Source of the DNA: Chiloscyllium plagiosum | Taxonomy: Eukaryota | Direction of reading: 5' to 3' | Length of the DNA: 53,276 nt | NCBI RefSeq assembly: GCF_004010195.1 | Contig: NC_057752.1 | Coordinates: 4,782,504-4,835,779 of the forward strand | Shown: piece after piece, positions 4,110 to 47,902 of the stretch | Layout: each line of letters starts with the position of its first letter | Numbering within the stretch: the stretch's first letter is position 1 | Program-made: the position numbers and the translations under genes | Notes under the pieces: generated by a model | Databases searched by the model: none | What the model was told of the DNA's origin: nothing | The model's input: the letters and a program-made list of their open reading frames with translations, nothing else

Positions 4110-5765
4110 AGCTCGATGGGCCCCAGCTATGCCTGTCTCTTTGTCGACTATGTCAAACAGTCCCTCTTCAGTACCTACACAGGCACTGTACCCCAACTCT
4201 TCTGCCGTTATATCGATGACTGCATTGGTGCAGCGTCCTGCACCCCAGCTGAACTGGGGCAGTTTATCGACTTCACCCACAACGTCCACCCTGCCCTCAA
4301 ATTCACTTGGTCCATCTCAGACACCTCCCTCCCCTTTCTTGACCTCACCATTTCCATCTCCGGCGACAGTCTCCAGAGAGATGTTTACTACAAACCCACA
4401 GAGTCCCATAACTACCTGGACTATACCTCCTCCCACCCAATACCGTGCAAGAACTCCATCCCGTTCTCCCAATTCCTCACCTCCTCCGCATCTGCTCGGA
4501 CGAGGAGACATTCCACTCCCAAGCATCCTAGATGTTCAGCTATTTCGAACAATGTGCTTCCCCCCCCCCCACCTCTGTCATCCAGACAGCCCTCTGCCAC
4601 ATCACCTCCATTCCCTGTTCCACTGCCCTTTACCCGCCCCCTCGTGCCTCTGCCGCACCTGCTTGGACAAGGGAACATTCCACTCCCAAGCATCCCAAAT
4701 GTCCACCTATTTAGAACAATGTGCTTTTCCCTTCTCTATCAGCCAGACAGCCCTCCACTGCACTGGCTCCATTCCCCGTTCCACTGCTCTAAGCCCCCGC
4801 CCCTCTAAATGCAATAAAGACAGAGACCTCCTTTCTTCACCTACCATCACACCAGTCTCTGCATCCAACCCATCATCCTTAAACTCTTCCACTAACTCCA
4901 ACTAGACCCCACCACCAAGAACATCTTCCCCTTCCCACTCCTCTCTGCCTTCCACAAGGACCGTTCCCTCCGCCAATCCTTGGTTTGCGCCACTGTCACC
5001 ACCAATTCCCCCACCCCCCCAAACTCCCAGGTACCTTCCCCTGCAACTGGAAAAGATACAAAACCTGCCGGTACAACATCCCTCTCACCTCCATCCAAGG
5101 CCAAACAGTCCTTCCAGGTGAGACAGAGGTTCACTTGCCTCTCCTCCAACCTAGCTTACTGCATCAGGTGCTCCCGATGTGGTCTTCTGTACACCAGGGA
5201 GACCAAACATACACTAAGGAAACATTTTGCCAAGCATGTCATCCGGGCCCACAGGAGCTGACCTGACCTCCCACTCACCACCCATTTTAATTCCCTTCCC
5301 ACTCCTTTTCCGACATGACCATCCTTGGCCTCCTCCATTAACGCAACAAATCCAACCACAAGTTGGAGAAAGAACACCTCATCTTCTGCCTGGTCAACCT
5401 ACACAGTCTGGAGGACTCAACATTGAACTCTCCAATTTCAAATAGTCTCCCTTCCCATCACCCGATTCCGACCCAGTCCCTCTCCCTCCCTTCCACTCCT
5501 CTCATCGACCCTTCCATCTAGCCACCTACCAGATTCATTCCTCCCATTGACCAACCAGGTCGTACCCTCTACCTGGTTTTCCCTAACCCCACCTCACCAC
5601 CCTGCCCCCACCACCCCCTTTACCTGCAGCTCCCCCCACACCCACCCCCAGTCCTGAAGAAAGGTTACACCCAAAAACATCGACTTCTCCACCTCCCGAT
5701 GCTGCCTGGCTTGCCGTGTTCTTCCAGCCTCCTGCCTGTCTACTTTGGACTCCAACATCTGTGGT
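4110..5765 (+). mobile_element. Penelope-like retroelement (RT + GIY-YIG endonuclease), 5'-truncated and frameshifted, with 3' pLTR and hammerhead motif
   Basis: RT motifs MGPSYACLF, RYIDD, LPFLDL, VYYKPT..YLDYTSSHP; GIY-YIG region NLAYCIRCSRCGLLYTRETK and GLNIE; terminal CTGAAGA...AAAAC motif at 5654-5685. Confidence 0.92.
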
Positions 5766-6202
5766 GTCCTTCTTAAAAACAATATGAAAACACAATATAA
5801 CAAATGCGATGGGTTAGATTAAACACTAGCCAGTTGATAAAAATTTTTGTCATTGTTTGCACCATTTGAAATCCTCTTGATCTATCGAAAGATCTGATCG
5901 GCTCAGATCCCAGGTCGGAAACAAAAAAAAACACTTCTCTGCTTTTTAGTCTTTCTCCCCATGTCCTTCGGAGATTGCTACAGTGTTGGCTGATGTGTCA
6001 TAATCAGTGCTAATGATGGTGGTCCAGTATCTGATGGTCAACCTGCCAGTGAATTCCAATTGGCTCAAAAAGAATCAAATGAAACAAATGCTTTTGGAAC
6101 ACATCGAGAACTTGATCTGCCCAATTAACCAAGTAAAGCAGCATCAGAATAACTTCCATGTGTAGTATGAAGGAGAAGGAGGAGGGAAATACCACTTACT
6201 CT

Positions 6203-6620
6203 GGACACCAGTGTAAACAATCAGCACTAGTGTTAATGGCCAATTACTGTGGGCACCAGTATAAATGGTCAGTCACTGTGGGCACCAATGTAATTACCCA
6301 ATTACTGTGGGTACTGGTATAAATGGCCAGTTACTGTGGGCACCAGTATAAATGGTCAGTTACTGTGGGCACCAATGTAATTATCCAATTACTGTGGGTA
6401 CTGGTATAGATGGCCAGTTACTGTGGGCACCAGTATAAATGGTCAGTCGTTGTGGGCACCAGTATAATTATCCAGTTACCATGGGTACTGGTATAAATGG
6501 TCAGTCGTTGTGGGCACCAGTATAAATGGTCAGTCGTTGTGGGCACCAGTATAATTATCCAGTTACCATGGGTACTGGTATAAATGGCCAGTTACTGTGG
6601 GCACCAGTATAAATGGCTGG
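6203..6620. repeat. 29-bp minisatellite (~14 copies), unit CACCAGTATAAATGGYCAGTTACTGTGGG
   Basis: Direct tandem units at 29-bp spacing (6251, 6280...) with an 87-bp higher-order period (6280/6367). Confidence 0.92.
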
Positions 6621-12287: not shown

Positions 12288-12860
12288 GAGTCAGAGAGTT
12301 CTACAGCACGGAAACAGACCCTTCAGTTCAACCAGCCCAGGCCAACCCTAATCCCAAACTAACCTTGTCCCTCCTGCCTGCTCTGACATAACATAAAAAA
12401 ACAGGAGCTGGAAGGGCCTATCTGGCCCCTCAAGTCCACTCTGCCATTCACTAAGAACATGGCTGATCCATTCGAGGACTCAGCTCCACTTACCCGCCCT
12501 CTCACCATAACCCTTAATTCCTTTACTGCTCAAATATCTATCTGTGCCTTAAAAACATTCAGTGAGGCAGCCTGAACTGCTTCACTGGGCAGGGGACTCC
12601 ACAGATTCACAACCCTTTGGGTAAACAGGTTCCTCCCTAACTCAGTCCTCCTTATTTTGAGGCCATGCCCCCTAGTTCTAGCTGGCTGGCCCACATCCCT
12701 CCAAAACTTTCCTGTTCATATACTTATTTAAGTGATTTTTAAATGTTGTAACTGTGTCCACATCCACCACTTCCTCAGGAAGTACATTCCACCGCAAACC
12801 ACCCGCTGTGGAAACAATTTGCTCCTCATATCTTTCTTTCAATCCCTCTCCTCTCACCTT
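12288..12860 (-). mobile_element. Cluster of short CR1 3'-end fragments from different subfamilies
   Basis: Three successive CR1 tail/ORF2-end pieces (WNVLPEEVVDVDTVTTFK). Confidence 0.7.
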
Positions 12861-13070
12861 AGTGGAAATGGAGAAGTCCTTGTCCGGTGGTGGCTTGCAT
12901 TTCTCTCCTAGCAAGGAGCTTTTCAGAAGAAACAAAGCTGAGTTCTGGTTTTCTCTCTCCACAAATGCTGCCAGACCTGCAGAGCTTCTTCAGCATTTTC
13001 TGTTTGAATTTCAGATTGTCAGCATTTGCAGTAAGTTACTTTTATTAAAAAGAGTAAAGGGAATATGTTA

Positions 13071-13375
13071 GTTGAAACTTTATTGCTGGAACAGCACAGC
13101 AGGTCAGGCAGCATCCAGGGAACAGGAGATTCGACGTTTCGGGCACAGGCCCTTCTTCAGGAATCAAAACTTTCCTGTTCATATACTTATTTAAGTGATT
13201 TTTAAATGTTGTAACTGTGTCCACATCCACCACTTCCTCAGGAAGTACATTCCACCGCAAGCCTGTGCCCGAAACGTCGAATCTCCTGTTCCCTGGATGC
13301 TGCCTGACCTGCTGTGCTGTTCCAGCAATAAAGTTTCAACTTTGATCTCCAGCATCTGCAGACCTCACTTTCTCC
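13071..13375. mobile_element. Young non-autonomous Penelope-derived insertion: inverted termini + captured 96-bp local DNA, 14-bp TSD
   Basis: Perfect inverted repeat 13071-13150 / 13261-13340; 35-nt tail 13341-13375; TSD AAGGGAATATGTTA at 13057-13070 and 13376-13389. Confidence 0.9.
13128..13165 (-). ncRNA. Minimal type I hammerhead ribozyme motif
   Basis: GAUUC-CUGAAGA-A-GGGC(CUGU)GCCC-GAAA-C-GUC^GAAUC: complete catalytic core, 4-bp stem II, 5-bp stem I, palindromic ACGU mini-stem III. Confidence 0.8.
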
Positions 13376-13632
13376 AAGGGAATATGTTACCTTTGTTTAA
13401 AAAAAAGGTCTCGCTCGTGCAACTATCAGATCAGGAGAGTTTGGTCAGGAATCTGCAGGTTATTAAAAGCTGAAAACGTCTAAGCTCTCAGTTTAAGTCA
13501 GAAATAAAACTTTGATATAGAGACGTAATTTATCTGCATTTGAAAATCAACTCTCAGACAGTACTGGGAAATAATTGAAAATTTTGTTTTGTTTTATGTT
13601 TTAAGATATTTTTAAACAGTCTTCTACATCTA

Positions 13633-17900: not shown

Positions 17901-17924
17901 TGAAATATGACACCTTCCAGTGAT

Positions 17925-18530: not shown

Positions 18531-20464
18531 ATCTCAAAAGGAAGAAGTGGACAGGTTGTTGGGGGGAGTGGAATTCCAGAGTTTGGGACAAAGGCAGCTG
18601 AAGGCTATGGCTGCTGATGGAAACTGGGGATAAACACAAGGTGGATTGTAGGGTTGGAGCAGATGATAGAGATAGGGAGGAGTGAGACTCTTGTGGGATT
18701 TGAAAACAGAATTCATAGATATGCTGACTGGGCAACTGCAGTATTAGCCTTTCGCCAGAGGTGTCTCTAGTGTACAGCAATAGCAGTTTGCAGGGTCAGG
18801 TTATCCTGGAGAAGAGGCGCACAGTCTCTGCCAAGGTAGCAACACGGCTGGTTGAAGTTTTAAAAGCTTCCTTTGATTTTCTGATTAAGTCCTTTTTCAT
18901 TTCGCCTCTTTATGAGGGGGCAGGGCTTTTGTTTGATTTTCACATGATAACAATAAGGCAACCCAGTTCCGCCTCGTGAATTATTTGAGCAAAGGATACA
19001 GATTAGGAAACCCATTCAGTCAATGATTCCAGAAAAAAAAACTAACAACTGATGCCTTTATTTCTTCAGAAATTCCACATTGGCGGCTCTACCCATCAAT
19101 CCCTTCTGTGTATTTGTCACTCTGAGCATCAAGAATGGGTTGTGTCAATGCTACATGTCCCCCTCATTAAATTTGAGCCTGTTCCCTAATCCCATTCAAT
19201 TTAATTTGAGTTATATTTCAATTTGAATTTTCCACACAGGTTACAAGATGGAGGCAGTTATTTTCTGATCAATGTTTGACCAGGAGGAGCAACCAGTCCA
19301 AGTTTTGGTTTAGCGGCGTTTTTAATATAATTCATCATCACTCAGAATCTTCTGTTGTGATTTATTCCAGCCAATCATTTGCAGGTTATCACTCTCTCCT
19401 TTTAAACACGATGAGAGCATGTCAGAAAAAAAAACCATCTCAAAAAAAATAAGCAGGAGATTAGAATCTCCTCAGTTGAGGACTGACTCCGTGCTGACTG
19501 GCCACAGTCAGCGTACTGTGAACGAGTAAATAAAGAGTGACTTGATGACAGAACCTATCCTCTGAAAACAAAACAATCTCAGGAACAGGCCTGCATTTTC
19601 TTCCAGAGAGAATGCAGCTCCTGCACAATTTACCAATAGTTAATACAGGTCCCTCTAATTAGTCAATTCTACCTTGGCTACAGTTGAAGTGTACTTCATG
19701 CAGAAAACTATAGAACTAAGACATTATATGCAAGTGACATTAAAATACAACATAATGCACATTCTGTGCTACTGGAATCAAGGGGAGGGAGCTGACTGCT
19801 GCTATTCACTAGCTTGGGCATTGACCCTGAAGTTAACTTGTATATTGCTTCCACGAAAACTTTTAATGGCTGTGTCTTGAGCTGTCTAAAGCCTAATCTC
19901 TGGAATTCCCTCCCTAACTCTCTGTTTCACTCCAGCTCTCTCTCTCCTTCTTTAAGAAGACCCTTTCAAATCTACCGAGATAGCATTGAGCTGGGTACAG
20001 CCAGATAACCAGCTGACATGCCCATCCAACTGTGGGTACAGATTCTATCAAAGGTGGCCAATCTATAATGCCTAGATCACTTGGCAGGTTCAAAAGATTG
20101 GGCATGTGGGCATTGTACTGGGAGAAGCTGCCAGCACTTCAACCCTGCAAGAGTGGATAGCTACAATGGAGAACAGAACAGGAAATAAAGATCATCAGCA
20201 ACAAGAAACAAATGGGTTAATTTTAATCACAATTCTCTACATTTGTTTTATCCCTTTTAAATGTTCACTTTTATCAAGAAATGCTTTAGAGGAGCAGAGT
20301 AGTGTAGACATGTTGTACTTGTTCCAAAGACCAGCCTGTATTCCTTTAAACAACATGCTATTTGTCTGTTTGGATGGGGCATTGTCACAGTAACAGTCAG
20401 TTTTGAAGTTATGTTTTGAAGTGGAAGTTGATTTTGAAGTTTTCAAGACCCCTTCAATTGTTTC

Positions 20465-21235
20465 TGACTGGAAACAACAAATATTGGAGATCACAGCGGG
20501 TCAGGCAGCATCCATGGAGAGAGAGCGAGCTTACGCTTCGAGTCTGAATGACCCTTCATCAGGGCTGGCCAGCATTCATGCTGTAGTCAGGGATTGGGGA
20601 GTGTGGGAGTTGTGGGAGAAAGGATGTTGATAGTTCAGATTAAGTGATTGGACACACCATTGTTCACAAGCAGGACCTTGCCATAGCCAGTCATTTTAAC
20701 CCAGCGTCCTGCTCACATGCCCCACATGTGTCTGTCCTTGGCATACTGCAGTGTTCCAGTGAATCACAGCGCAACCTGGAGCAACATCGTCAGACTAGGC
20801 ACTTTACAGCCTTCTGGACTTAATATTAACTCAACACCTTCAAATTGTGAAGCCGCTCCCATTCCTCCCCTCTCTTTTAGCTTTACTTGTTCCATTCTCT
20901 GTCACCATGTCCACTCTCCCCTTCCCCCACCCGTGGGATTACCTGTTCCTCCCAGTCTGCCAGTTAGACACACCATTGTTCTGCCATTCTCACAGTACCA
21001 CCACTTAATCTGAACATTGAGCATCCTTTCTCCCCCAATACTCCACACCCCACCAACCTCCTCCCAGCTACAGCATAAATGCTGCCCCCTCCACACTTCA
21101 TGTCAGCCCTGACGAAGAGTCATCTCGACCCGAAACATGAGCTTGCTCTCTCTCTGCGGATGCTGTCTGACCCACTGTGATCTCCAGTGTTTGTTATTTT
21201 CAGTGCAGATCCCAGCATCTGCAGTAATTTGCTCT
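20465..21235 (+). mobile_element. Penelope-like remnant: GIY-YIG C-terminal fragment flanked by inverted pLTRs with hammerhead motifs
   Basis: Arms ~20465-20652 and ~20997-21205 are inverted copies; the interior encodes RLGTLQPSGLNI; hammerhead cores at 20528-20566 (-) and 21105-21143 (+). Confidence 0.8.
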
Positions 21236-21573
21236 GACACTGTCTGACTGGGCTCGCCTTGTAAATTCACTAAACCACTTCTAGGGTTTATCGAGGATTG
21301 AAAAAAATGCAATGGCTGTCTCACTCGCTAGCCCCAGCACTAACGGTGAAGTGGGATGGAAGTGCAGAGACTGGATCCAACCCCAGTCTAGGCTGTGTAC
21401 TCAGATCTAGCCTGGGGTAGCAGCAATGGTAGTGCTATTGGTGAATCAGTCTGTGGAAAAAGGGGCGAGTCACACAGGAGGAGATCTCCTTTCCTGTTGA
21501 TCAATCAATGAGTCTTTTTTTGTTGTTATTCATTCATAGGATGTGGGTGTCACTGACTGGACTGCCATTTACT

Positions 21574-21750
21574 AGAAGACAGTGAGGTCTGCAGATGCTG
21601 GAGATCAGAGTTGAGAGTGTGTTGCTGGAAAAGCACAGCAGGTCAGGCAGCATCTGAGGAGCAGGGAAATCGACGTTTCAGGCCGGAGCCCTTCATTAGG
21701 AAAGAGGCCTCTATACCAAAATGTCAGTTTGCCTGCTCCTCAGAGGATCC
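21574..21750 (-). mobile_element. Penelope-derived mini-element inserted into an older SINE-like repeat (~21525-22020)
   Basis: TSD CCATTTACT at 21565-21573 and 21751-21759; full minus-strand terminus plus a short inverted partial arm. Confidence 0.78.
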
Positions 21751-23159: not shown

Positions 23160-23273
23160 GGAGAAAGTGAGGACTGCAGATGCTGCAGGATCAAGAGTGT
23201 GGTGCTGGAAAAGCACAGCCGGTCAGGCAGCATCCGAGGAGCAGGAGAGTCGACGTTTTGGGCATAAGCCCTT
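23160..23273 (-). mobile_element. Penelope-derived terminus (solo)
   Basis: ggagaaagtgaggactgcagatgctg...gctggaaaagcacagc..gtcaggcagcatccgaggagcagg..gtcgacgttttgggcataagccctt; same family as 13261-13375. Confidence 0.8.
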
Positions 23274-23884
23274 GGTTACAGGAATAAAGGATGAAAACGA
23301 GGGCAAATGAGGTGAATGTTAATGCGGCTTAAGAAAGGCATCCTCCTGCAATGCAGGAATGTGGATCTTTTGTAAACAGATTAATAACGCAGCCAGCAAG
23401 TGCTGTGTGTGTTTGGGGTGGGGGGGGGGGCAGTTGAGAAACATTCACGAGGGATCGCATTGAAAAGAGCTCTCTCCTCCAGCGTCAGGTTGTCAGTTGT
23501 ATTCCCTCGAGGTGTGCCGGTATGCATCTGATGTCCCATTGATGGCGCTGAGAGAGGGCCAAGGTCACGCTGATGTTTATTGAAAGGCTCATGGATATTC
23601 AGCAGGCTTCAGAGTGGGCTGCAATAAATCATCCGAATCTCTGCTGAGGGAAGGGCCAGGGGCAAATGCACTCACCTCTGTGGCTCTGCAGCTGATGCTG
23701 GTACAGGAGTGCACTGCTACCAGCTGGCAGAACTCAAAACCTTAGGGCACTTAGCAATGAAACAGTAAAGAATTCGAACAACACAGCAGCTCTCTTTCTA
23801 ATCCGAAGCGCTATTTATCTTGGGCAAATGCTTTGGTATGAGTTATCGAGAGGATCAGAATGTGGCCAGGCTGGCTATGATAGT

Positions 23885-25025: not shown

Positions 25026-27371
25026 TAGAACAGTAGGTACACCTCAGAAAAGGAATTCACTGGCAGTGGAAGAAGTGCTAGACATATATAAGCCCCCTTG
25101 TTTTTTCTTCATTCATAAACTGGAATCCATCAAGTCTGATTCATACATTGGAATGCAACATGAGCCTAATGTTTCAAGCTGCACATTCTCAGCTGGAGTT
25201 CTGGGCAGGGAGTGTTAACAGAATTCCAGCAGCAACTGGATAGAATGCCTCGCTCTCTTATTAAATGGTGCTTGAAACTTCCGTGTTTGACTTCTGAAAG
25301 ATATTTACAATTGCAACAGCACTTCAGGAATGTTGACACCAACTGGCTCACAGTTGACAGGCAACAACCATAATAACCATAATACAGCCTTACTGTACCG
25401 CCGGTTTCAACTGCTCTCCCTGTGGCACTGCCAGCTTCAACTGTGCACATGACATCATTGGCAGCTCAGACCAATCACCCTGTGGCTCCGCCAACTTCAA
25501 CCATTTATCCTACTGCATGGAAATGTAGACTTTGCCAACTTCAACTGTTGTCTCTATTGCACTCACTGCCATTCTGACTACTTGCCATGGTATAGACGAC
25601 CTGTGTAAATTAGGTTGTCGACTGCTGATGCCGCAGAAACAGTGCCAATGCTGGCGAGCACTGGCATTCCTTGCAAATTGCTGACCGCCGGTTTCAATTT
25701 CGAAGCTCCTTGGATGCTGCCTGAACTGCTGTGCTCTTCCAGCACCACTAATCCTGAATAACCTGACAGTGTATCCCGGAAATGGAAATTTTTATCATTG
25801 GAAGGTTTGACATTCTTTGCAGCCCTGGTCGAATTAATTGGACTGTCCTTTTAAATGACGATTCCCAGCAGTGGGGTGCCTCCTAATTCTGCTGGTGCTG
25901 CATAACCAGGTCATTTATTTCTGCATTCACCCTTCCAAGGATAGATCCAGTCTCCCTATATTGTGGAGGAGTCGAAAGGTCAGCCACTATTCCAATGGCC
26001 GCTTTTGTCTGTGTTCAGCTGAGTGGCGAGAATTGAAAAGAATTGGATTGAACTGAATTCCGCGAGGCTGGGCACCTCCATGCGGTCTGCAACAGAGCGG
26101 AAATAACCCTCGACTTGTCATCTCATGCTCTGACCTGCAGCTGCTTCACAAAAAAGACCAAGTGTTCAGCACGAAAGGACCTGGGCAGAGTGCATCAGTA
26201 GCAGGGAGGGGTCACCTGGGGGTCACAAAAGGTGCTTCTATCAGAGGGTGAATGTAGCTGTGGTGCTGCAGAGCACATGGGAGGTCCTGTCCACACAAAT
26301 GTCTCCCCTTGCCGCTCTCACAAACAACTTCAAACAATTCGGCAAGAGATGCAGCAAAAAAGGGCAGAGAGCAAAGATTTAACAACATGAAGAAAATAAA
26401 AGGGTGGAGTGTGGTGGAAGGACAGGGAGAGTTAGGGGAGCTTCTGGTCCTCTGCGACATGTTGAGGGGGTTGTCATGGTAACCACTTTGATGTGACACC
26501 AACTGGGAATGATAAATAGTGAAGGGGAGAGCGATCAGGGAGGAACAAGGCCAGTGGAGTGTAACATTTCAACTTGGTCTCCCAATCAGTCAGACCACCA
26601 GCTTACTGGGCGGGGGTGGGGAAGATCGACAACATGAAAGAAAAAGTTGACAAGAGGGGAATTGATATGTAAAAGCTAATAACACTTTATTAAAATCAGA
26701 GACACTTTCCCTCCAATCAACCACAAATTCAGAAACTCCGCAGTTCAGGATGAGGTAAGTGTGTAACTTAGTTTTTGTTCCCCCTACTCCTCATCTGGTG
26801 GGTTCCTCAATGTTCAGGCCTAGCTTTGGCCTGCTTGTTGTGTCTGGGGCCTTTCATCAGCAAGTTCTTTATGGCCCAGCAATTGTGGTGCTATTGAGGT
26901 TGCACCCATTGTGTGAACAGCTTCCTTACCCCCACAAGGGTGACGCTACTCCTGTGGACAATCTTCATTTTAGTTTGGAAGCAAGGTCAGTGAAGAGACT
27001 TGCTGTCAGTGTCATGGAGAAAATGTGGAGAATCACCAGGAGATGCAGAGGGTTCTTCAAGAAGTAGGTCTTTTATTTGCAACAAAAAACCTTAACACTC
27101 AGAAAGCAGATTCTTGAATGCCCCCAAACCTCAGGGTTTGTGACTTTTAATATCTTTTTTTATCATGTTTCTGTTAGCGTATCAGCATATCCAACTATAT
27201 TATTCAAAGTACCTCACGCTAGCTACACAATAAACCAGTGATGTTAGTTCCCACTATCTCTTTAATTGTGCCCCTATAGATTTTCCTACATTCTACTTAA
27301 TGTTATTCAAATGTCACGATTAGATATTTAGTGTCAGCTTTTGCAACAATGGTCTTAATATTTTCCTAATG

Positions 27372-30711: not shown

Positions 30712-30909
30712 GTCATGTTGCAGTTGCAATCGTCGATTGGTACGTCTATAAAGAGTCTGACCACTGTAATCATTTATTGATTATAGATAATGCTACCAAT
30801 CTGATGAAGCACTGCGAACTTGGATTTCTGTAGCAACCTGCACCAACTCAAGATGTTCCAAAATGCTCCCAGCCAATTAAGCATTTTTGAATCAGAGTCA
30901 TTATTGTAG

Positions 30910-31002
30910 AGCTGAAAATGTGTTGCTGGAAAAGCACAGCAGATCAGGCAGCATCCAAGGAGCAGGAGAAACGACGTTTCGTGCATGAGCCCTTCTTCAG
31001 GA
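30910..31002 (-). mobile_element. Penelope-derived terminus with hammerhead core
   Basis: Reverse complement reads CTGAAGAAGGGCTCATGCACGAAACGTC...GGATGCTGCCTGATCTGCTGTGCTTTTCCAGCAAC. Confidence 0.8.
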
Positions 31003-32290: not shown

Positions 32291-33640
32291 TCTGTATGTG
32301 TGTGGGCTATGCCTGTGTGAGTGTATGTAATTTAATTAATAATAAACCTACATCACTTCCAATCATGACATTTAAGTAATTCAAAAAGTCAAGTACAAAC
32401 TTGAAAGAATTCTTATTTCAAGAAGACAAAATAAGAATCATTGAGTATTAGTATTAGTTTACAGTGCTCTGGATGCGTTAAATTGATTGAGTTTTGCATT
32501 CAGTTTGGGATGGGAAAGAGTGGGTCCAAAACTTATGTTTTGAAGTTACAGTCAAGCAATTAAGAGAGTATGAAGACAGGGCTGGTTAAACTGAAATTCG
32601 GTTAAGGAATAGGTCAGTAGAGATACCGTACGGATAGCAGATTAGAGATAGTGAGGGAGATAGTTCGTGACACTCAGGTAAGCTATATTCCAGTGGGAAA
32701 CAAAACTCTAAGGAAACGATGCACCATTTGTGGCTAACTAGGGAAATTCAAAAGTGTATCCAATTGAAAAAGCGAAGGTACAAGTCTGCAAAGATTAGTG
32801 ACAGGTCAAAAGATTGGATAGAATATCAGAAACGCACAAAATTTAGTAAAAATGGAGAGAGAAATTTGAGTATGAGAGAAAGCTAGCTAGAGGTAGAAAA
32901 GCAAATAATAAGAATTCCTACAGGTATTTAAAAATGAAAAGAATAAGTAAAGCCTTGTGGGGAGAGAGAGAGAGAGGCTCGGGAATTAATAATGGAAAGT
33001 AAGGAAATGGTGGATGAATTGAACAAATATTTCACATTCATCTTCAGTATTGAGGATACAAACAACAGCCCAGAAATAATTGTGAATTAGGTTAAAATCC
33101 TTGAATTCCCTCCCCTAGGGCATTGTGGGTCTTCTATAGTAACTGGACTGCAGCAGTTCAAGAAAGCAGCTCACCATCACCTTCTCAAGGACAACTAGGG
33201 ACGAGCAACAAGACGCTGGCCCAATCTCAAGCAAATATATATAAAAAGGTTGCGATAGATAGAGGATGCATTGGCTTTAATTTTCCAAGATTATGGAAAT
33301 GTTCCATCAGATTAGAAAATAGTGAATATAACTCCTCTATTCAAGAGAATACAAAGACAAAAACCAGGTAACTACAGGCCAGTTAGCTTAACATCTGTCG
33401 CATGGAAAATGCTGCTATGTTTTATGAAGGGCATCACTATAAAAATCTCACTGCATTCAGGCAGAATCATCATGGTTTTGTGAAAAGGAAATCATATTTG
33501 ACTACTTATTACAATTTTTTGAGGAAGTAACAACGTTGATAAAGCGAAACCCATGGATGTGGTGTACTTGGATTTTCAGAGACATTTAGGTTCTTTTCCC
33601 AAAGTTTCGCACGCGAGATGCAATTCGCACACACCAACTT

Positions 33641-34492: not shown

Positions 34493-37156
34493 CAACTTCT
34501 GCAAACAGTTAAAGTTTATTAAAGCTTGTACTAGCTAGGTGACCCCCTTTGACTCTCTTTTCAGGCATGCGAAGTTGGGTCAAAATGAGGCCCCGAACAA
34601 AGAAACCACATCCCCTTTATACAGGTCAGTTGGTAATGCTTACAGATACTCTGGCCACTCCCCCATAGTCACATGCCATTCAAGACAATCCCCAGATACT
34701 CACAGTCACTTGTTACCCCAGGTACAATGGTAGGATGAGATCATCCTCGGAGATAATGCAAATGCTAATGCACTAACCCTGGGGAATCGTTATGCAGATG
34801 ATTTCCTGACTCAGTGATTCCCCAAGACAATGTAGGTGTGACATAATTCTGGCCAGAAAGCATTCCTGAATGGAAGAGTTTGAATGATAGTTTAACTTGA
34901 CAATAGCAGGAGAGTAATAGTGAATGACTGTCTAGATGAAGTGTAAATTACAATGGATGGTCATCCGCATTCTTTCATGGCTGTCGTCCACACCCAAAGG
35001 CAGTGCAGTTTAACCCTTTAATATTACATTAATGTCCAGAGAGATATTACCATTTAATCTTTTAACATGACAAGCTGCCATGTTAAAGGTTATTATGGAA
35101 AATAAAAACTCATATTGTACAGGGTAACATGGTGGCATGGGCAAGGATTGATTAACTAACTAACAGGAAACAAAGAGTGGAGGTAAGTAGGTAATTTGCA
35201 CATTGGAACATTGCCATGAGGGAAGTGCCACAGGTATTGGTGTTCAGGCTTGATTTATTTACAATCTGTATAAATGACATGGATGATGAAACCAAATATG
35301 TAATTGATAAATTTTTTGATGACACAAAGGTAGAAAGGATAGTGAGTTCTGAAGTGGATGCATGAAGAAGACTACAAATGGATATGGATAGGTTAAATGA
35401 GTGGAAATACCCTTAGACCAGAGAGGGGGATGAATTAGGTGGTTAGGGAATAGAGGTTGTGATAAAGACCAAAGTTTAAGAATGGCTTCAATCTTCCCAG
35501 TCCTTGGGGCCTCCAGAAGTAAGAAAGAATGAGAAGGACAGCCATTACAGGCAAGTTTCTGGCTAGGAAAGGAGCCAGACAAGGATATTCCTGTTCATTC
35601 TGCACGACCGAGGCAAATGTTGAAGGAGGATGATGTGATCAAGCCTGCACAAATCTCCACAAGGACACAGGGAGATAATTTACCATGGTCAGAGTCTCAT
35701 AGGAGCGGAGTGAAGGAAGAAGGACAGTAAGAGAAGAAGTGAGACAGAGAGAGACAACTCAGGTCAAAAGCTAAAGCATTAATTTTTAATGTACAACTGT
35801 AAATCTATTTCAAAGAATCATTTTCGACTTATTTTAGGATTTAGAACATTCAGGGATTTCCTTCTTATTCCATCTTTCCTTCTTTAGTCCTACCCAGAAT
35901 ACACATCATTGTAATTGCCTAGTATCCTTCCAGTCCCACCATTATGTTGATTATTGGGAAAGTGGGATAGGGATGTGAGGCAGGAGTGGACTTGTTCAAG
36001 GAGAGAAGTCACATCATTTCCTATTACCCAAGTGAACTGGGTGGACATCTATGTTTAAGAAGTTGGACATGATAATGAGTCCATGAGAAAGAACAGAACA
36101 GAACAGTGGAACACTCCTCTTCCACGGCTACACCAGCACCATTTCCCACCTTTTCCTTTGCTACATCGAAGACTGTATCAGCGCTGCCTCATGCTCCCAC
36201 GAGGAACTTGAACAGTTCATTCATCACACCCACACCTTCCACCCTGACCTCAAGTTCACTGGAACCATCTCCGACACCCTCCTCCCCTTCCTGGACCTCT
36301 CCGTCTCCACCAACTGACATAACCCTGACATCTACTTCAAACCTACCGACTCCCACAGCTATCTTGACTACACCTGCTCCCAACCTCCCTCCTGTAAAGA
36401 CGTGATCCCTTACTCCCAGTTCCTCCGCCATATCTGCTCCCACATGAGCAATTCCACTCCCGGACATCCCAGATGTCCTCCTACTTCCAGGACCATAATT
36501 TCCCCTCCCTTGTAATCTGCGTTGTCCTCAATCGCACTTCCTCCGTTTCCCACACTCCTGCCCTTGAATCCCACCCCTCCCCAAACCCAACAGGTACAGA
36601 ATGCCCCGGTCCTCACATTCCACCCCACTATTCCCCAAACCCAGTGTATCATCCTCTGCCATTTTCACTGCCTACAGTCAGACCCCACCACCAAATATGT
36701 ATTTCCCTCCCCACCCTTTGCCTTCCCATACCCCCCATGATTCCCTTGTTAGGTCCAGACTCCCCACTCCACACCCGGCACCTTCCCCGCCATCATAAGA
36801 AGTGCACATCCTGCGCACATACCTCCCCCCTCACCTCCATCCAAGGCCCCAAAGGATCCTTCCATATCTGGCAGAGATTTAGTTGCACATCCTCGAACCT
36901 CATTTACTACATCCATTACTCTCGATGTGGTCTCCTCTACATTGAAGACACCGAGCACAAATTCGTGGAACAGTTCAGGGAACATCCCTGGTCCGTATGC
37001 ACCAACCAACCCCACCTTCCTGTGGCCATCCATTTCAACTCCCTTTCCCACTACCCCCTATGACATGTCCATTCTGGGCCTACTCCACCACCTAAACAAG
37101 GCCACCTGCAAACTGGAAAAGGAACACCTCAGCTTCCACATCAGGTGCCTACAACC

Positions 37157-38695
37157 ATAGAACATAGAACGACGGTACAGTACAGTACAGGCTTTTTGGC
37201 CCTCGATGTCGCGCCGACCTGTGGAATTAATCTGATGCCCATCTAACCTACACCGTTCCATGATTATCCATATGTATGTCCAATGCCCATTTAAATGCCC
37301 TTAACGTCAATGAGTCTACTACTGTTGCAGGCAGGCCGTTCCATGCCCCTACTACTCTCTGAGTGAAGAAACTACCCCTGATATCTGTCCTAAATCTATC
37401 ACCCCTCAATTTAAAGCTATGTCCCCTCGTGTTAGCCTTCACCATCTGAGGAAAAAGGCTCTCACTGTCCACCCTATCTAATCCTCTGATTATCTTATAC
37501 ATCTCAATAAGTTACCTCTCAAAATCTTCTCGCCTCCGTTCCCTCAGCCTTTCCTTGTAAGACCTTCCCTCCATGCCGGGCAACATTCTAGTAAATCTCC
37601 TCTGAACCCTTTCCAATGTTTCCACATCCTTCCTATAATGCGGTGTCTGTCTTTTTTCAGCTAGCCAATTTCTGATCCAATTCGCTAAATCACCTTCAAT
37701 CCTGAAATTCCGTATTTGAGCAATAGCTTACTGTGTGGAACATTATCAAACACCTTACTGAAGTCCATATACACCACATCAACCAACTTACCTTCATCCA
37801 CCTGTTTTGTCACCTTCTCGAAGAACTCAATAAGATTAGTGAGGCACAACCTACCCTTCACAAAAACGTGTTGACTATCCCTAATCAAATTATTCCTTTC
37901 CAGATATTTATAAATCCTACTTCTTATAACCTTTTCCAACACCTTACCCACAACTGAAGTGAGGCTCACTGGTCTATAATTACCCAGGTTGTCCTGACTC
38001 CCCTTCTTAAACAAGGGAACAACATTTGCTACCTTCAGTCTTCTGGCACTTCTCCTGTTGATGATGATGACATAAAGATCGAAGCCAAAGGCTCTGCAAT
38101 CTCTTCCCTGGCTTCCCAGAGAATCTGAGGATAAATCCCATCTGGCCGAGGGGTCTTATCTATTTTCAGATCTTCCAAAATGGCTAAAACCTCCTCTTTG
38201 TCAACCTCAATCCCACCTAATCTAGTAGCCTGTATCTCCGTATTCTCACAAACATTGCCCTTTTCCAACGTGAATACTGACGAAAAGTGCTTCCCCAATG
38301 TCCTCAGATTCTACACACAACTTCCCACTGCTACCTTTGATTGGCCCTAATCTTAATCTTACTCTAGTCATTCTTTTATTCCTGATATACCTATAGAAGG
38401 TAAAAACAATGACTGCAGATGCTGGAAACCAGATTTTGGATTGGTGGTGCTAGAAGAGCACAGCAGTTCAAGCAGCATCCGAGGAGCAGCAAAATCGACG
38501 TTTCGGGCAAAAGCCCTTCATAGAAGGCTTGAGGGTTTTCCTTGATCCTATTCGCCAACAACTTCTCATTTCCCCTCCAGGCTCTTCTCAGCCCTCTCTT
38601 TTGTTCTTTTCTGGCTAACTAATAACTCTTAAGGCCCCTAATTGACCCTTCACGCCTCATCCTCACATAAGACTTCCTCTTCCTCTTGACAAGAG
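37157..38695 (-). mobile_element. CR1 LINE (5'-truncated, internally deleted) nested in the Penelope element
   Basis: NYRPVSLTSVVGKVLE...CLTNLIEFFE...VYMDFSKVFD; YKIIRGLDRVD...WNGLPATVV; (TTCTATG)n tail at 37157. Confidence 0.92.
38401..38519 (-). mobile_element. Penelope-derived mini-insertion inside the CR1
   Basis: TSD ATAGAAGG at 38393-38400 / 38520-38527; contains TGAAGGGCTTTTGCCCGAAACGTC on the minus strand. Confidence 0.82.
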
Positions 38696-40717
38696 CATAT
38701 GGCTTCAACATTGAATTCACCAGTTTCCAAATCTTTCCAAGTCAGATGCAACCCTCTGACTTGTCTCTGCCCTTTTGACCTGACCTATCTATCTATTTTC
38801 CTTCCCACCTCCTACCTTTTCCCACCTATTGCCATCCAAACCACCCTTCCTCCTCCCCAGATCTGATGAAGGGTTAGGCCCGAAACATCAAGTCTCTTGC
38901 TCCTCAGATGCTGCCTGACCTGCTGTGTTTTTTCCAGCACCACACGTTATTGGCTCTGACTTCTCTAGCATCTGCAGTCCTCACTATCTCCTAGTTCATG
39001 AGAAGCACTAGCATTGTGTCTGTGAAATACAGCAAACACAGCCCATTAATATTTTGTTGAAGGTGCCACTTAAGACAGTCCTCCATTACACATTCGCCTC
39101 ATCAGACAGCATCGTTTCCAGGGCGATAAAGGCACTTAACTTCAGTTGCTAAATCAGTCATTGTTTATATGCAAAGTCAAGAGGAATGATGCTGGAACTG
39201 CTCACTCAGTGATTGATTATCTCCATGTGCAAAAACCTGAGCTTCATAGTGTCAAGGCCTTAAATTAATAGCTTGCTACCAAATGTGGGTCCTTCACAAG
39301 GTTAGGTTACCCAAGAATACAAAAACAGCTGCTGCTCTATACAAACTGTGACTACAAAGTCAAGCACAAATAGTGTCATTTCTCCAGCAAACCTGTGGTT
39401 GCAAGTAATGTAATAGTCAGCAAAAGAACTGAGTCATTCAATTAATTTTCTATCGGAAATCATCAGTTTTCAGCATGGAGTTCCATACCCTGCTAAGCAC
39501 ACCCTTCCTTCAGTAATCACAGTGACTCCTTCGGCAGAGATTTAGGAAGAAAAGCCCTTGATTACAGGCTGAACACAGTTACAGCTCCTTCGCCCTTCTA
39601 ACCCCCTCATAAAAAGGATTGGCTGCTATTGTGCTCACATCATAATCAGTCACTGTGAGGAGATTATTTGGCTCAGTGTACATCAGCCAAGAAATGCATT
39701 CAGGATAATTAGCTGCACAGCAAACATTAACATTGCTCGTTAATTATTGAACAAGTCTGACTTGCTAAACTAAAAGAACTAACCCTCAAATAAAACTACA
39801 CGCTTGATCATGACGATTTATTTTGCATTGTCAGAGTGGAAGTGGTAATAAATAGTCAGATTCCTAATCAGCGGAATGAGATTCCATTCATTTTCATTTT
39901 GTCGTCCACCAGTCACCAACTATTGTTTATTCAAGAAAACAGTGCCTTTTCACTGACATCCAGTGCAGACAATCTCCATGCCCCGATTTGCATGCGTCAT
40001 TGGGATAGTAGAAGGTATTAGGGTTGATTCTGCTCTCATTTATATTCTTTCCAATAGGGGTCACAATAGCAATCAAGAGGAAGAACTACGATTGATTTTT
40101 CGGTCAGGCAGTTTAGGCCAATTGAGCACTTGAACTGCTGCCGTGGCTATGTATAGCTAACATGTTAAAGATCAGAAAGTAAATAAATTTGGCACCTTCA
40201 TCTGTATATTCCTACACAACAACAGTAGTCACACTTCAAAAATACTTAATTGGCTGAAAAATGTTTTGGGGTTTCCCAGGGTCATGAAGGGGAGGCGGGG
40301 AGGGGAAGGGTGCAGGTGCAGGAGCTGCCTGTTAAAAATGATTACCATTCAAAAATGACGATTCATTGTTTAATAGCCTTCGTCACTTTTGTATGCATTG
40401 TTCTGGTGCAGCCATGCACAAGGTCAGGTCTCATCTCCTTGATCACCGCTAGGGCCTTCTAAATTAATCAATTTATGCAGTCTTCAGTCAGATCTTTGTG
40501 AACAAAAGAAATCATAATCCAAACTGCCACTGTGCAGAATTATTCACGAAATCTTGCTGATTCATTGATCTAAGAAATGAAAATATAGGAGGCAATTTTA
40601 ACACAACTCAGTAATTGAAATCCGCAGGAGCAGTTGGAATCTTGGTTTCACACTTCATGCAGTATCTTCAAGTGGACGGTCAAATTGGACCAGTTATAAA
40701 ACCAGCATTTCAACTGA

Positions 40718-41960: not shown

Positions 41961-42191
41961 ATCCAGTCAGTTTCCCAATGAGCATGTCAGCTTAAAATTA
42001 CTCCTATTATCCCAATTCTCTTCAGAAATTGAAGTTGAAGGGAGGTGTACGGGAAACTGCATCTGATTAAACCAAGTCTTGAGAGGGTATTACTCTTAAT
42101 AACTCACTATTTTTTTTCTAAACTTGAATTGTTATTGAAATGTATATTTTGATCACTCTGATAAAGTGCTTGGCTAAGGCTTCCTTGGCAC

Positions 42192-44220: not shown

Positions 44221-45299
44221 ATATCTAAGTACCATCATCTCCTTTGCATCACAGTTTTTGTCAAGAGATGTTTGACCTCTGGGTCAGATTTCCAGATTCT
44301 GCAGGCTTGCTCTTCTGTCAGTTTGAGAAGAGCTTGCATTATCTCACAGCTGCTGCTATCATTTTTGTGATTTGCAGCTTATATTTGTCAGTTCGGTTGC
44401 ATAGTCACAAAAGTGATCACCAGCGGTTGTGTCTCTCTCCAGAAGTCCATGTCTCACCCAACCTGCACCATCAGTGAGGAACAAGGGATAATCAATGCAA
44501 TATAAATAGACCTTGGTGCAGATCATCCAAGGTTCTGCCAAAGAATACAAAACTTCCTTACTAAAACCATCACAAAGGTGAGTGTACTCACAGAGATAGG
44601 CTTCTCTTGTAGGGGGAGAATAGAGTGGAGCAGCCAAGGTAAAACTTTGACCTCTTTGTAAACTTGTGATATACCATTAAAATAAATGGGTAGAAAAACC
44701 ATGATTGGTGAGCGTAGAAGCAGAAAGCCCTAGCCCATGTTTCATCTAACCCAAAAATGTGTAATGCAGAAAATCCCCTGCTGACATCATAAATGCTGCC
44801 CTTCAAAACAGTTCATTATACATGAAGTGCTCTGGACATTTCTGGAATACATTAAGGCATGTTGCAAAAGATCATGGTCCTGAACTTCCTCAGGGAAGGT
44901 GCACACAGTTCCTGTGTAAAATGCAAACGAGAACAGTGGAGGGAATGAGAAATTGGGTGGATCCAAAAATGTTAAGTCTTTTCCTGAAAACTGGCACAAG
45001 AGACTTCCTGCTGCAACAACAGACATTCTGCTCTCACCATAATGATCTAAGAAAAGGCAGGAGTCATGACAGGCAGAGTGATTTCACCTGCCAGATTTAT
45101 TACAACTCCTGCCACTTACATCATGTGCCAGTGACAGGAAAGCTAGAGAATATTTAGACCAGAACTCAGAAGTGATGGAACTGCGTCTCTCAAAGGAAGC
45201 CCACAATCAATTATTGCTCCTATTTCCTTTGGCTATCTCAATTGCTTATTAGTATTTTGGGATCATGTTCCACAATTCAGCTTGTCTCTGAAAACAAGC

Positions 45300-47370
45300 C
45301 TCTTTTGCAGCAGAGAGTGGTGGGGCCTGGGCGGAAGTGAGGTCGGACCACAGAGGCTGTTGGGAAGGTTAGTGAGTGCTATTTAAGTAGTTACTTCGAA
45401 GCCAGTGGTCTTTTTTGCAGCAGAGAGCAGCGGGAGCTGGGTTGAAGTGAGGTCAGTGCGCAGAGGCTGTTGGGAAGGTTAGTGAGTGCTATTTAAGTAG
45501 GTCTGGTCTGAGCCCCTTAAGAGTCCACAGACTCACAGCAAATAAAAAGGGGGTCGAGGGAAGTGTCTGGTGAGAAAAGTGAGAGTCTTTGGCTTATGCC
45601 ACAGACTCATGAAATTACACTACAGTTTGAAGAGGGTGAAGACATGACTGCCAACCTGATTCAGTGTACTGTGTGCATGATGTGGGAGGTCAGGGACACT
45701 GATGATGTCTCTGGCTCTCATAGCTGTGGAAAGTATGTACACATTCAGCTTCTGCAGGAGCATGTTGCAGCTGAAGAAAGAACTAGATGACCTCAGGCTC
45801 ATCCAAGAGAATGAGAATTTTCTGGACAGAACCTTCAGCGAGGTCATTACACCGAGCATATCAGGAGAGAGAAGGGAGATGACAATGAGGAAGGATGAGA
45901 TGATTCAAGTAAAAGAGATCCCAGGGGAAGTACCTCGCGTGAATAGGTTGACTCTCTTCTCACTGCCAGTCTGAGAGGCGGACAGGTCTGCCAACTGAAA
46001 ATAGGTGCGAAGGCAGAGCCGAGGAGTCAGACATCATGCAAAGCCGTGGTAATAGGGGACTTCATAGTGAGAGGGACTGAAAGGGGTTTCTGCAGCAACA
46101 GGCGGGAGCAACAGGCGGGATTTGAGGATGGTGTGTTGCCTTCCTGGTACCAGGATCCAGGACATCAACAGAGTGCAGGGAATCCTCAAGGGTGAAGGTG
46201 AAGAGCCAGAGGTGGTGGTTCATGTCGGCACAAATTACATTCAATCCCTTGCGAGGGGGGACATAGAATCAGGAGATATAGAGTCAGTATGGATAGAGCT
46301 GAGAAATTCTAAGGGTAGAAAGACCCTAATGAGAGTTATCTACAGGCCCCCAAACAGTAGTCTGGATGTAGGGTGTAAGTTTAAAAAGGAGTTGAAATTG
46401 GCCTGTTGCAAAGGTATTACTACAGTTATGGTGGATTTCAACATGCAGGTAGACTGGGAGAATCAGGATGGTACTGGACTCCAAGAGAGTTTGTGGAATG
46501 CCTCGGAGATGGATCCTTAGAACAGCTTGTACTGGAGCCTACCTGGGAGAAGGCAATTCTGGATCTGGTGTTGCGCAACAAACCGGATTTGATCAGGGAC
46601 CTCAAAGTAAAGGAACCATTAGGAGGTAGTGACCATTATATGATCAGTTTTAATCTGCAATTTGAGAGGGAGAATTGTAAGTGTCAGTATTGCAGTTGAA
46701 CAAATGGAACTATAGAGCTATGAGGGAGAAGCTGGCCAAAGTTCAATACCCTAGCAGGGATGGCAGTGGAACAACAATGGCAGGTATTTCTGGATATAAT
46801 GCATAAGGTGCAGGATCAGTTCATTCCAAAGAGGAAGATCGATCCTGATGGAAGGCAGGGGCAGCCGTGGCTGATGTTAAGGACTGTATAAAGATTAAAA
46901 AGTATAACATAGAAAAGATGAGCTGGAAGCCGAAGGACTGGGAAACTTTTAGAGCAACAGAGGATAACTAAAAAGGCAATACGCGGAGAACAAATGGAGG
47001 TGTAAAGGCAAATTGGCCAAAAAGATGAAGGATAGTAAAAGCTTTTTTAGGCATGGGAAAAGACAGACTAAAATTGGGCCCTTGAAGACAGAAACGGGTG
47101 AATTTATTATGGGGAACAAGGAAATGGCAGAAGAATTGAATAGATACTTTGGATCTATCTTCACTGGGGAAGATAGAAGCAATCTCCCAGCTGTAATAGT
47201 GGCTGAAGGACCTAGGGTAATGGATGAACAGAAGGGAATTTATATTAGGCAGGAAATTTTGTTGGACAGACTGTTAGGTGTGAAGGTTGATAAATCCCCA
47301 GGACTTGATGGTCTGCATCCCAGGATACAGGAGGTGGCTGTAGAAATTGTGAACGCATTGGTAATCATTT
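45300..47370 (+). mobile_element. CR1 LINE 5' half: duplicated 5' UTR unit, ORF1 (Zn-finger/coiled-coil, SGNH esterase) and ORF2 endonuclease; 3'-truncated
   Basis: IQCTVCMMWEV..CGK..LQ; LKKELDDLRLIQENE; VVIGD.IVRG; CCLPGTRIQD; VVHVGTN; IYRPPNSS; ILDLVL; GGSDH; KSPGLDGLHPR. Confidence 0.88.
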
Positions 47371-47631
47371 TGGTACGCATTGGTAACCAAAGTGCATGGT
47401 TACAAAGTTCAATCAGGTCATAAGTGGAAATGAGATTGCAAGGAAACAAGCAGCTATCTGCCACCAACAAGCCTGGAACTGTCAAGTACCTCAGCAAATT
47501 CAGTTAGCAAGAAATACTGAAACAAGACTGATCTTACTGGGCTAGGTGCTTTATCTCAAATTAACCCCTATATATTGTCCCTACTCACATTACAAGTGTC
47601 TGGATGTTCAAGGTTTTAAAAAAAAAAATAT

Positions 47632-47902
47632 AAAAACCACACCAGGTATAGTCCAACAGGTTTATTTGAAAGCACGAGCTTTCAGAATGCTGCACCTTCA
47701 AGTAGCTATGGAACAATATATAGGCAAGAATTATTTTTTTTCTATAAAGCTAGATGTTGTACCTTAGTGATCTTTTCCACAGCTAGCTGCTTTAAAAAAA
47801 GTGCTCAAAAAAAACACTAAATAAACCTGTTGGTCTATAACCTGGTTGTGATTTTTTTTTAAAGCTTTGCCCACCTGAATCCAATACCAGCTCTTCCACA
47901 TT
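47632..47902. mobile_element. Second Penelope-derived family: inverted termini (47632-47705 / 47815-47902); further fragment at ~48238-48292
   Basis: ccaggtatagtccaacaggtttattt is inverted relative to aaataaacctgttggtctataacctgg; degenerate GAAAGCT hammerhead half. Confidence 0.65.

What the first reader, a model, noticed from the sequence alone, without database searches (positions are those of the whole stretch)
5650..47902. Dispersed family of hammerhead-ribozyme-bearing Penelope termini with compensatory stem changes
Seen: the motif stemI-CUGANGA-A-stemII-GAAA-C-NUH-stemI' recurs at 5650-5685(+), 13128-13165(-), 20528-20566(-), 21105-21143(+), ~21668-21700(-), ~30970-31002(-) and 38860-38895(+), with partial copies at 13261, ~23250, ~38495 and ~47680. 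Stems differ but stay paired: stem I GAUUC/GAAUC vs AGUC/GACU; stem II GGGC/GCCC with loops CUGU, UUAU, UUUU vs G(A/G)GUC/GAC(U/C)C. Established: Penelope-like elements encode minimal hammerheads with a vestigial palindromic stem III thought to act as dimers. Inference: most copies here are 100-300 bp, lack ORFs and have their own TSDs, so they look like an abundant non-autonomous ribozyme-carrying retroelement system mobilised by the Penelope RT/GIY-YIG, about one per 5 kb in this window.
Basis: partly seen in the sequence, partly recalled or inferred. Interest (0 to 1): 0.8.

Follow-up and report, generated by a model that had tools for sequence, protein, structure and literature searches.

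The report
Hammerhead-capped Penelope retroelement stubs
These repeats are 90-130-base end pieces of a Penelope-type jumping gene that carry a small hammerhead-ribozyme motif and occur about once per 5 kb across the genome; they are not a separate mobile family and are likely made when the element's reverse transcriptase starts inside the RNA and runs off its capped front end.

Summary
The motif family is real: 189 copies in 977 kb of unselected DNA (about 680,000 genome-wide), with compensatory changes between lineages in stem I, stem II and the core (C3-G8 to U3-A8). Only 1 of the 7 listed window copies (13128-13165) passes a hammerhead descriptor, and its fifth stem I pair uses filler DNA. 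The copies are the terminal repeat (pLTR) of ORF-bearing Neptune-type Penelope elements; short and long copies mix on a tree, so the 'independent non-autonomous family' reading fails. Copy starts pile up at the first base of stem I, not at the ribozyme cut site. That base lies 31 nt behind a TATA-like box and is often preceded by an extra G. 41 of 43 head-to-head pairs have one tailed and one tailless arm. Best reading: internal priming on both target strands, run-off at a capped 5' end, ribozyme uncut during mobilisation. PLE hammerheads, solo copies and one-sided tails are published. The scan found this family before in other windows of this genome; the TATA/extra-G evidence was not in those notes as shown to me.

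The parts
4077..5294 (+). Broken Penelope-like ORF remnant: RT/thumb (4077-4478) and linker plus GIY-YIG region (4827-5294)
   Evidence: tblastn with an intact relative P0020, E 3e-39 and 1e-11
5619..5625 (+). AT-rich TATA-like box 31 nt before the unit start (inferred promoter element)
   Evidence: position profile over 87 long copies
5650..5777 (+). 3' pLTR unit of the ORF remnant; decayed hammerhead 5650-5689 (AGUC/GACU lineage)
13056..13070 (.). Left copy of 15-bp target-site duplication (right copy 13375-13389)
13070..13164 (-). Tailless arm of a head-to-head insertion, starting at the unit's first base (13164); intact minimal hammerhead 13129-13164, predicted cut 13133/13132; youngest sampled lineage (AUUC/GAAU)
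13165..13260 (+). 96-nt filler between the arms, identical to window 12702-12797
   Evidence: blastn 100%
13261..13375 (+). Tailed arm of the same insertion, 5'-truncated inside stem II; 81 nt identical to the other arm
   Evidence: (I15)
20463..20640 (-). Older lineage copy (AGCU/AGCU stem I, 5-bp stem II), decayed hammerhead 20528-20566
21008..21237 (+). Same older lineage, decayed hammerhead 21105-21143, CATAAA box about 31 nt upstream
21574..21708 (-). Short tailed copy, core mutated (CUAAUGA)
23160..23285 (-). Short tailed copy starting at the unit's first base, core disrupted
25705..25749 (+). Internal fragment of the unit (+40 to +84), no hammerhead
30908..31002 (-). Short tailless copy, core letters intact, stem II mismatch
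36129..37051 (+). Second broken Penelope-like ORF remnant
   Evidence: tblastn with P0020, E 1e-19 and 4e-14
38411..38519 (-). Short copy lacking the first core letters (+7 to +115)
38859..38997 (+). Tailed copy with decayed hammerhead 38860-38895; upstream extent not fixed (it served as its own reference)
47636..47700 (-). Decayed fragment of a second hammerhead-bearing family (palindromic AGCU stem III); another piece at 48239-48286

Best explanation
The repeats are the terminal-repeat (pLTR) module of a Neptune-type Penelope-like retrotransposon, and the short copies are likely run-off products made when the element's reverse transcriptase starts about 95 or 130 bases inside the RNA and copies to a capped 5' end that is predicted to be the first base of the hammerhead. 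Shown: the unit sits at both ends of ORF-bearing copies; copies end at two sites about 35 nt apart (the 'tail'); starts pile up at one A; an AT-rich box lies 31 nt before it; an extra G often precedes it; head-to-head pairs carry one tailed and one tailless arm inside one 12-18 bp TSD. Inferred: Pol II starts at that A; the G is the copied cap; a dimeric RT-endonuclease nicks both target strands and primes one cDNA at each start site, and the two cDNA ends are joined by microhomology or filler; a cDNA that reaches the cap sometimes jumps onto another ~200-nt RNA and gives small tandems. The hammerhead is under selection in source elements but is not cut in the RNA that gets copied.
For: Numbering: +1 = the C before CUGA; the start A is -2. 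Unit at the 3' end of ORF copies (L087) and running on into the ORF 5' region (L112, L121, L153). 73 of 189 unselected copies start at -8..+5 against 17 expected from the rate inside the unit; 59 of the 105 copies holding the core start at -8..+2. 3' ends are bimodal at +85-95 and +115-130. Genome-wide exact counts: 5,359 with a non-templated base before the A, 14,275 with the templated C, 9,837 reaching three bases further. G is the base in 67 of the first 100 listed (counted by eye); in 63 distinct loci read in full, 17 of 33 solos (background 26%, p=0.0016) and 23 of 30 pairs. AT content 89-92% at -31..-29 relative to the A in 87 long copies; a plain TATAAATA at about -31 in the 5 long copies of the U3-A8 lineage. 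A second family repeats the plan: TATAAA about 40 nt before the core, starts at -11..+3, two 3' ends. 41 of 43 unselected head-to-head pairs are tailed+tailless (p=1e-10); 26 of 30 in a second, pattern-selected set. 24 of 30 loci with the ORF-side continuation are small tandems, donor at +191..+208 in 19, acceptor at -14..+7 in 16. Published support: two internal RT start sites define the tail, both strands are cut and extended, the RNA must reach 172 nt into the ORF, and hammerhead mutants still insert (PMC11167929); an extra G marks full-length L1 insertions (PMC11702581).
Against: No direct map of the RNA start: the one RNA run that laid (3,023 reads, single-cell polyA, both strands, 94% running on into unlike sequence) showed no place where many molecules begin or end. 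The G excess did not repeat in the U3-A8 lineage (5 G of 30 loci, 5 of 18 non-T). In several solos the G is also the last part of the TSD, so it is visible only as a bias. The box in the commonest lineage is TTTTATCT, not a canonical TATA, and the 87 rows are related, not independent. 45 of 189 copies reach upstream of the A and need read-through or 3'-pLTR templates; 70 start inside the unit. Arms of a pair are only moderately more alike than arms of different pairs (0.91 against 0.86; 11 of 36 in the top 5%), so one shared RNA template is not shown. No intact full-length element was recovered.
Confidence: 0.62

Rival explanations
1. The short copies are 5'-truncated products from the 3' pLTR of long RNAs; the pile-up at the A comes from an RT stall at the hammerhead fold or from the element's endonuclease cutting its own ATT motif.
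For: The anole PLE endonuclease prefers 5'-ATT-3' near the ORF-pLTR junction (PMC11167929), and the commonest lineage has ATT exactly there. 45 of 189 copies do come from templates reaching upstream. Short and long copies share lineages.
Against: Lineages with AGT or AGC at this place stop at the same position (only 5 of about 28 U3-A8 loci share upstream sequence). An RT stall is expected on entering a stem from its 3' side, not after leaving it (general knowledge). Neither variant explains the G excess or the box at -31.
Confidence: 0.25
2. The short copies are an independent non-autonomous family (SINE- or retrozyme-like) with its own master copies, mobilised in trans by the Penelope proteins.
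For: Very high copy number, no ORF, own TSDs. Short copies have a short copy as nearest neighbour in 59 of 90 cases. Truncated copies that keep the upstream box could be transcribed and act as sources in trans. Retrozymes derived from pLTRs are described in vertebrates (bioRxiv 10.64898/2026.07.22.740005).
Against: No lineage of short copies apart from long ones; short copies lack the upstream box; tandem junctions and pair centres differ from insertion to insertion, so they are made anew each time.
Confidence: 0.09
3. Hammerhead self-cleavage and ligation make unit-length or circular RNAs that are the templates, as proposed for retrozymes.
For: Core and stems are under compensatory selection; the dimer helix ACGU/ACGU is possible; the model is proposed in PMC4209133.
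Against: 9 of 189 copies start at +28..+34 against 8.4 expected; 267 genome matches begin at the cut site against 218 at a control position three bases upstream; only 1 of 24 tandem junctions has its acceptor near the cut (+33) and no donor lies there; the commonest lineages carry a U.U or U.C mismatch in a 4-bp stem I.
Confidence: 0.04

Closest known systems
Minimal hammerheads (min-HHR) in pLTRs of metazoan Penelope-like elements (Cervera and De la Pena 2014, PMC4209133)
   Same: Type I fold, 4-bp helix I, extra base before stem II, palindromic vestigial helix III, U3-A8 core variant, mostly solo motifs, opposite-strand pairs, many compensated families per genome.
   Different: About 680,000 unit copies here (an estimated 200,000 passing a descriptor, from 60 per 977 kb) against about 4,000 in coelacanth and 9,000 in Xenopus; that paper proposes cleavage and circles, which the copy ends here do not support.
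Poseidon element of Anolis (PAc), internal initiation of reverse transcription (Frangieh et al. 2024, PMC11167929)
   Same: Two RT start sites about one tail apart downstream of the hammerhead; insertion ends fall on them; hammerhead cleavage not needed for insertion.
   Different: PAc is Penelope/Poseidon clade; this element has the CX4CxxC linker of Neptune/Nematis. In vitro no strand difference between start sites was seen, whereas 41 of 43 genomic pairs here use one of each. The paper does not address where copies stop at the 5' end.
PLE insertion architecture: inverted pLTR with one-sided tail (Arkhipova et al. 2013, PMC3846280; Craig et al. 2021, PMC8557442)
   Same: Head-to-head inverted 5'-truncated copy, 30-40 bp tail at one end, TSD, palindromic junctions, TATA and Inr-like motifs noted in a rotifer pLTR.
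   Different: There read as self-priming on an antisense template or endonuclease resolution; here counted on many copies and better fitted by double priming with run-off at a fixed start.
Non-LTR retrozymes (Li, Clavereau, Pollet, bioRxiv 10.64898/2026.07.22.740005)
   Same: ORF-less, hammerhead-bearing, pLTR-related; a few small tandems exist here.
   Different: Retrozymes are defined there as tandem repeats with a hammerhead in each unit; here 7 direct neighbours against 46 head-to-head pairs, and tandem junctions are private to each insertion.

Membership tests
EN+ Penelope-like element | Single ORF with RT and C-terminal GIY-YIG endonuclease (CCHH motif) | tested here: met
   Pfam RVT_1 on L087, L092 (at cut-off) and L096; GIY-YIG E 2e-4 on L096, just under the cut-off; Cys pair between GIY and YIG visible; 920 long relatives with RT, many with PF01541. 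No single intact ORF recovered.
EN+ Penelope-like element | pLTR: same sequence at the 3' end and upstream of the ORF | tested here: met
EN+ Penelope-like element | 30-40 bp optional tail, inverted 5'-truncated partner, TSD | tested here: met
Neptune/Nematis clade | CX2-5CxxC zinc-finger-like linker between RT and EN | tested here: met
   CX4CxxC in L096; definition from PMC8557442
Neptune/Nematis clade | RT phylogeny with reference clades | not tested
   No named reference set was fetched
Minimal type I hammerhead (PLE min-HHR) | Conserved core CUGANGA..GAAA..NUH with helices I and II | tested here: met
   60 descriptor hits per 977 kb against 1.0 shuffled; 1 of 7 listed window copies
Minimal type I hammerhead (PLE min-HHR) | Compensatory base changes | tested here: met
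   51 hand-picked copies: 5 of 8 pairs change on both sides, score 0.309 against 0.224 in shuffles (0/500) and at most 0.126 when slid; pair-count measures not above shuffles (420/500, 492/500). U3-A8 92, C3-G8 7, C3-A8 1, U3-G8 0 of 100. Not corrected for phylogeny.
Minimal type I hammerhead (PLE min-HHR) | Self-cleavage as a dimer | not testable with these tools
   Needs an in vitro assay; cofolding did not return the ACGU dimer helix as the minimum-energy form
Independent non-autonomous family (SINE-like) | Own subfamilies apart from the autonomous partner | tested here: not met
Non-LTR retrozyme | Tandem units, each with a hammerhead, propagated as a family | tested here: not met
   7 direct neighbours among 200 copies; tandem junctions vary per locus
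Non-LTR retrozyme | Circular RNA or ends at the cleavage site | tested here: inconclusive
   No excess of copy starts at the cut; the RNA run was unsuitable for ends

The most novel reading that the evidence does not exclude
Hundreds of thousands of fossil insertions record the Penelope transposition cycle: transcription starts on the first base of the hammerhead, a dimeric RT-endonuclease primes both target strands with one start site each, cDNAs run off the cap (leaving an extra G) and either join head to head or jump to a second RNA. This would explain the one-sided tail, the inverted repeats and the birth of tandems and retrozyme-like arrays without any ribozyme cleavage, leaving the hammerhead as a 5'-leader switch that can cut only when tandem copies bring two together.
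Probability: 0.5. Interest if true: 0.7.

Novelty: new member of a known kind. Interest (0 to 1): 0.45.

Why it matters
Hammerheads in Penelope terminal repeats are known, so the finding as written is not new in kind. What adds value is scale (about 1.9% of a 3.6-Gb vertebrate genome, two orders of magnitude above published counts) and that so many young copies allow mechanism to be read from junctions. How PLEs make their inverted and tandem ends, and what the ribozyme is for, are stated open questions (PMC8557442, PMC2377424, PMC11167929); the start-site, extra-G and tail-asymmetry patterns turn them into specific predictions for the existing in vitro system. It also warns against annotating these stubs as SINEs or retrozymes.

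Tried and rejected
Rfam scan: no hammerhead model hit. Pfam on five window frames: nothing. PDB sequence search with the RT: nothing. Looking for an intact full-length element: long 'open frames' were mostly N gaps, and a suspected 3.5-kb tandem was two separate small insertions. Apparent 5' pLTRs in L090, L092 and L093 were unrelated neighbouring insertions. RNA: no listed holder is on record as RNA; of two raw runs one laid nothing and the other showed no start or end peak, which says nothing on expression or cleavage. Cofolding of dimers was uninformative. A spike of starts at +47 (10 of 189) was judged an alignment artefact of diverged lineages and not followed. Three window 'pairs' were left out of the 41 of 43 count; two of them (20463/21237, 38411/38997) are probably separate insertions. 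Six loci with repeated junction letters were dropped before the count of 63; L184 and L185 are one insertion counted twice. Luense et al. 2017 on dimer cleavage was not held; it is known here only through a review (PMC6765202).
Full report
Setting. The window lies in a 3.56-Gb assembly. It holds mir-153, an alpha-tubulin exon and LINE-type RT frames. I take it for a shark-like vertebrate from recall of the repeat types and from earlier scan notes; I did not test this. Numbering below: +1 is the C just before CUGA, so the A that opens stem I is -2 and the predicted cut lies between +29 and +30.

Observation. All listed places hold copies of one 95-130-nt unit. Only 13128-13165 passes a minimal hammerhead descriptor; in 977 kb of unselected genome the descriptor finds 60 sites against 1.0 in shuffles. 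The fifth stem I pair of that copy uses base 13165, which belongs to a 96-nt filler identical to window 12702-12797. The partial copy near 47680 is from a second hammerhead-bearing family. One window insertion of 10 tested has a clear TSD.

Abundance. One exact 31-letter core pattern has 30,043 matches, its reversed control 0. In 1 Mb of stretches chosen by round coordinates I found 189 copies, one per 5.2 kb, which scales to about 670,000-690,000 copies and 1.9% of the DNA. The second family adds 59 copies in the same sample.

What the unit is. It is the 3' end of ORF-bearing copies (L087: 598-codon frame, then the unit, with an inverted tailed partner) and it also runs on into the 5' part of the ORF (L112, L121, L153). 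An RT fragment from the window has 50,500 first-look candidates in the genome. The protein has RT, a CX4CxxC linker and a GIY-YIG domain; the linker marks Neptune/Nematis elements (PMC8557442, passages). So the unit is a pLTR.

The ribozyme. Column majorities per cluster of 186 copies give stem I as AGUC/GACU, AGCU/AGCU, AUUC/GAAU (youngest, 1.6% divergence, includes the window copy), and with one mismatch AUUC/GAUU or AUUC/GACU in the four most numerous clusters (146 of 186). Stem II is GGGC/GCCC, GGGU/ACCC or a 5-bp form. On 51 copies that I picked across lineages, 5 of 8 pairs change on both sides; the score beats all 500 shuffles and all slid controls, but the two pair-count measures do not beat shuffles, and relatedness is not corrected. 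The core pair 3-8 is U-A in 92, C-G in 7, C-A in 1 and U-G in 0 of the first 100 of 1,015 matches (counted by eye). This matches the min-HHR class, including the U3-A8 variant (PMC4209133, parts 1-2 of 4 read). Cleavage itself was not testable.

No separate short family. On a tree of 110 copies from the unselected stretches and the window (66 short, 44 long) the label changes 32 times against 34.7 +/- 2.7 in shuffles. The only column with p<0.01 reflects decay in long copies, not a fixed difference. Short copies have a short nearest neighbour in 59 of 90 cases, a mild excess.

Where copies start. 73 of 189 start at -8..+5 (17 expected), 45 reach upstream of -10, 70 start further inside; 9 start at +28..+34 (8.4 expected). 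Genome-wide, 267 matches begin at the cut site and 218 at a control base three places upstream, against 5,359 with a non-templated base before the A. Thus cut RNA is not a notable template, in line with the anole data (PMC11167929, parts 1-2 of 4 read). That base is G in 67 of the first 100 listed; in 63 distinct loci read in full, 17 of 33 solos (background 26%) and 23 of 30 pairs, including 16 of 21 pairs with unmatched letters at the joint. An extra G marks cap copying in full-length L1 insertions (PMC11702581, passages). The excess did not show in the U3-A8 lineage (5 of 30). Long copies have an AT-rich box at -32..-27 from the A, TATAAATA in the U3-A8 lineage and TTTTATCT in the commonest; the letters around the A fit the initiator consensus (recalled). 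The second family has TATAAA about 40 nt before its core and starts at -11..+3. I infer a Pol II start at the A, which also explains why stem I covaries over exactly four pairs.

How copies end and pair. 3' ends fall at +85-95 or +115-130. There are 46 head-to-head neighbours, 4 tail-to-tail and 7 direct; 41 of the 43 pairs outside the window have one tailed and one tailless arm, as do 26 of 30 in a second set. TSDs are mostly 12-18 bp and flank the whole pair; controls gave 0 of 154. In the AGCU lineage arms can meet in a perfect palindrome on that self-complementary word. A tail 'often at only one end' is published (PMC8557442, PMC3846280, passages); the near-strict rule suggests one start site per primed strand. 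Arms within a pair are somewhat more alike than arms between pairs, which does not settle whether one RNA serves both.

Small tandems. Only 143 exact matches join the tail to the ORF-side continuation. Of 30 such loci, 24 run to about +191..+208 (19 of 24; range +155 to +393) and then return to the unit, near the A in 16. Contigs of another coded run show joints returning to the same A. I read these as template jumps from the RNA 5' end to a short RNA; about 200 nt fits the anole finding that the template must reach 172 nt into the ORF.

RNA. The single usable raw run shows the unit on both strands inside other transcripts, with loose ends at the genomic boundaries and no peak of starts or ends. 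It is not informative on start site or cleavage.

Prior knowledge. Six literature searches returned no paper on shark PLE hammerheads or on a start site at the hammerhead with cap-derived G; the library lacks most subscription journals and Repbase. Also seen: bioRxiv 10.64898/2026.07.22.740005 (parts 1-3 of 5; supplements not seen), PMC2377424, PMC6765202 and PMC6155905 (passages). In D. virilis the start lies upstream of an intron that ends at helix I (PMC2377424, PMC4209133), so a start directly at stem I would differ. Earlier scan notes on this genome reached the same family and the same 5' clustering; a word search of the notes for TATA, cap and transcription start found none.

Verdict. 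Real, very abundant, a new member of a known kind. The non-autonomous-family reading fails; the junction record gives a testable model of Penelope insertion.

Noticed in passing
window 44352-44424 (+): mir-153 precursor, Rfam RF00650, 69.7 bits
   Followed up: no
window 48995-50020 (-): 341-codon open frame that reads as the last exon of an alpha-tubulin gene (identification recalled)
   Followed up: no
window 14240-16100 and 31190-32360: Minisatellite arrays with 37-nt and 29-nt units
   Followed up: no
window 13165-13260 and 12702-12797: 96-nt templated filler between the two arms, copied from about 370 bp beside the insertion site
   Followed up: partly
window 47636-47700, 48239-48286; 59 copies in the genome sample: Second hammerhead-bearing family with AGCU stem III palindrome, TATAAA box and the same two-ended, head-to-head plan; its ORF was not sought
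   Followed up: partly
unselected blocks: A further descriptor class with a long stem II (about 7 hits of one 18-nt type) that may be a third hammerhead family
   Followed up: no
L153 2134-2708; L171-L200: Small tandem pLTR dimers with two hammerheads 200-340 nt apart; natural candidates for dimer cleavage tests
   Followed up: partly
L080 882-1250: Array of 46-nt repeats derived from the Penelope ORF
   Followed up: no
L112, L121: The ORF has a long Pro/Thr/Ala-rich low-complexity stretch between its N-terminal domain and the RT
   Followed up: no
window 12950-12995 (+): Fragment resembling the AGCU/U3-A8 lineage unit, without the hammerhead
   Followed up: no
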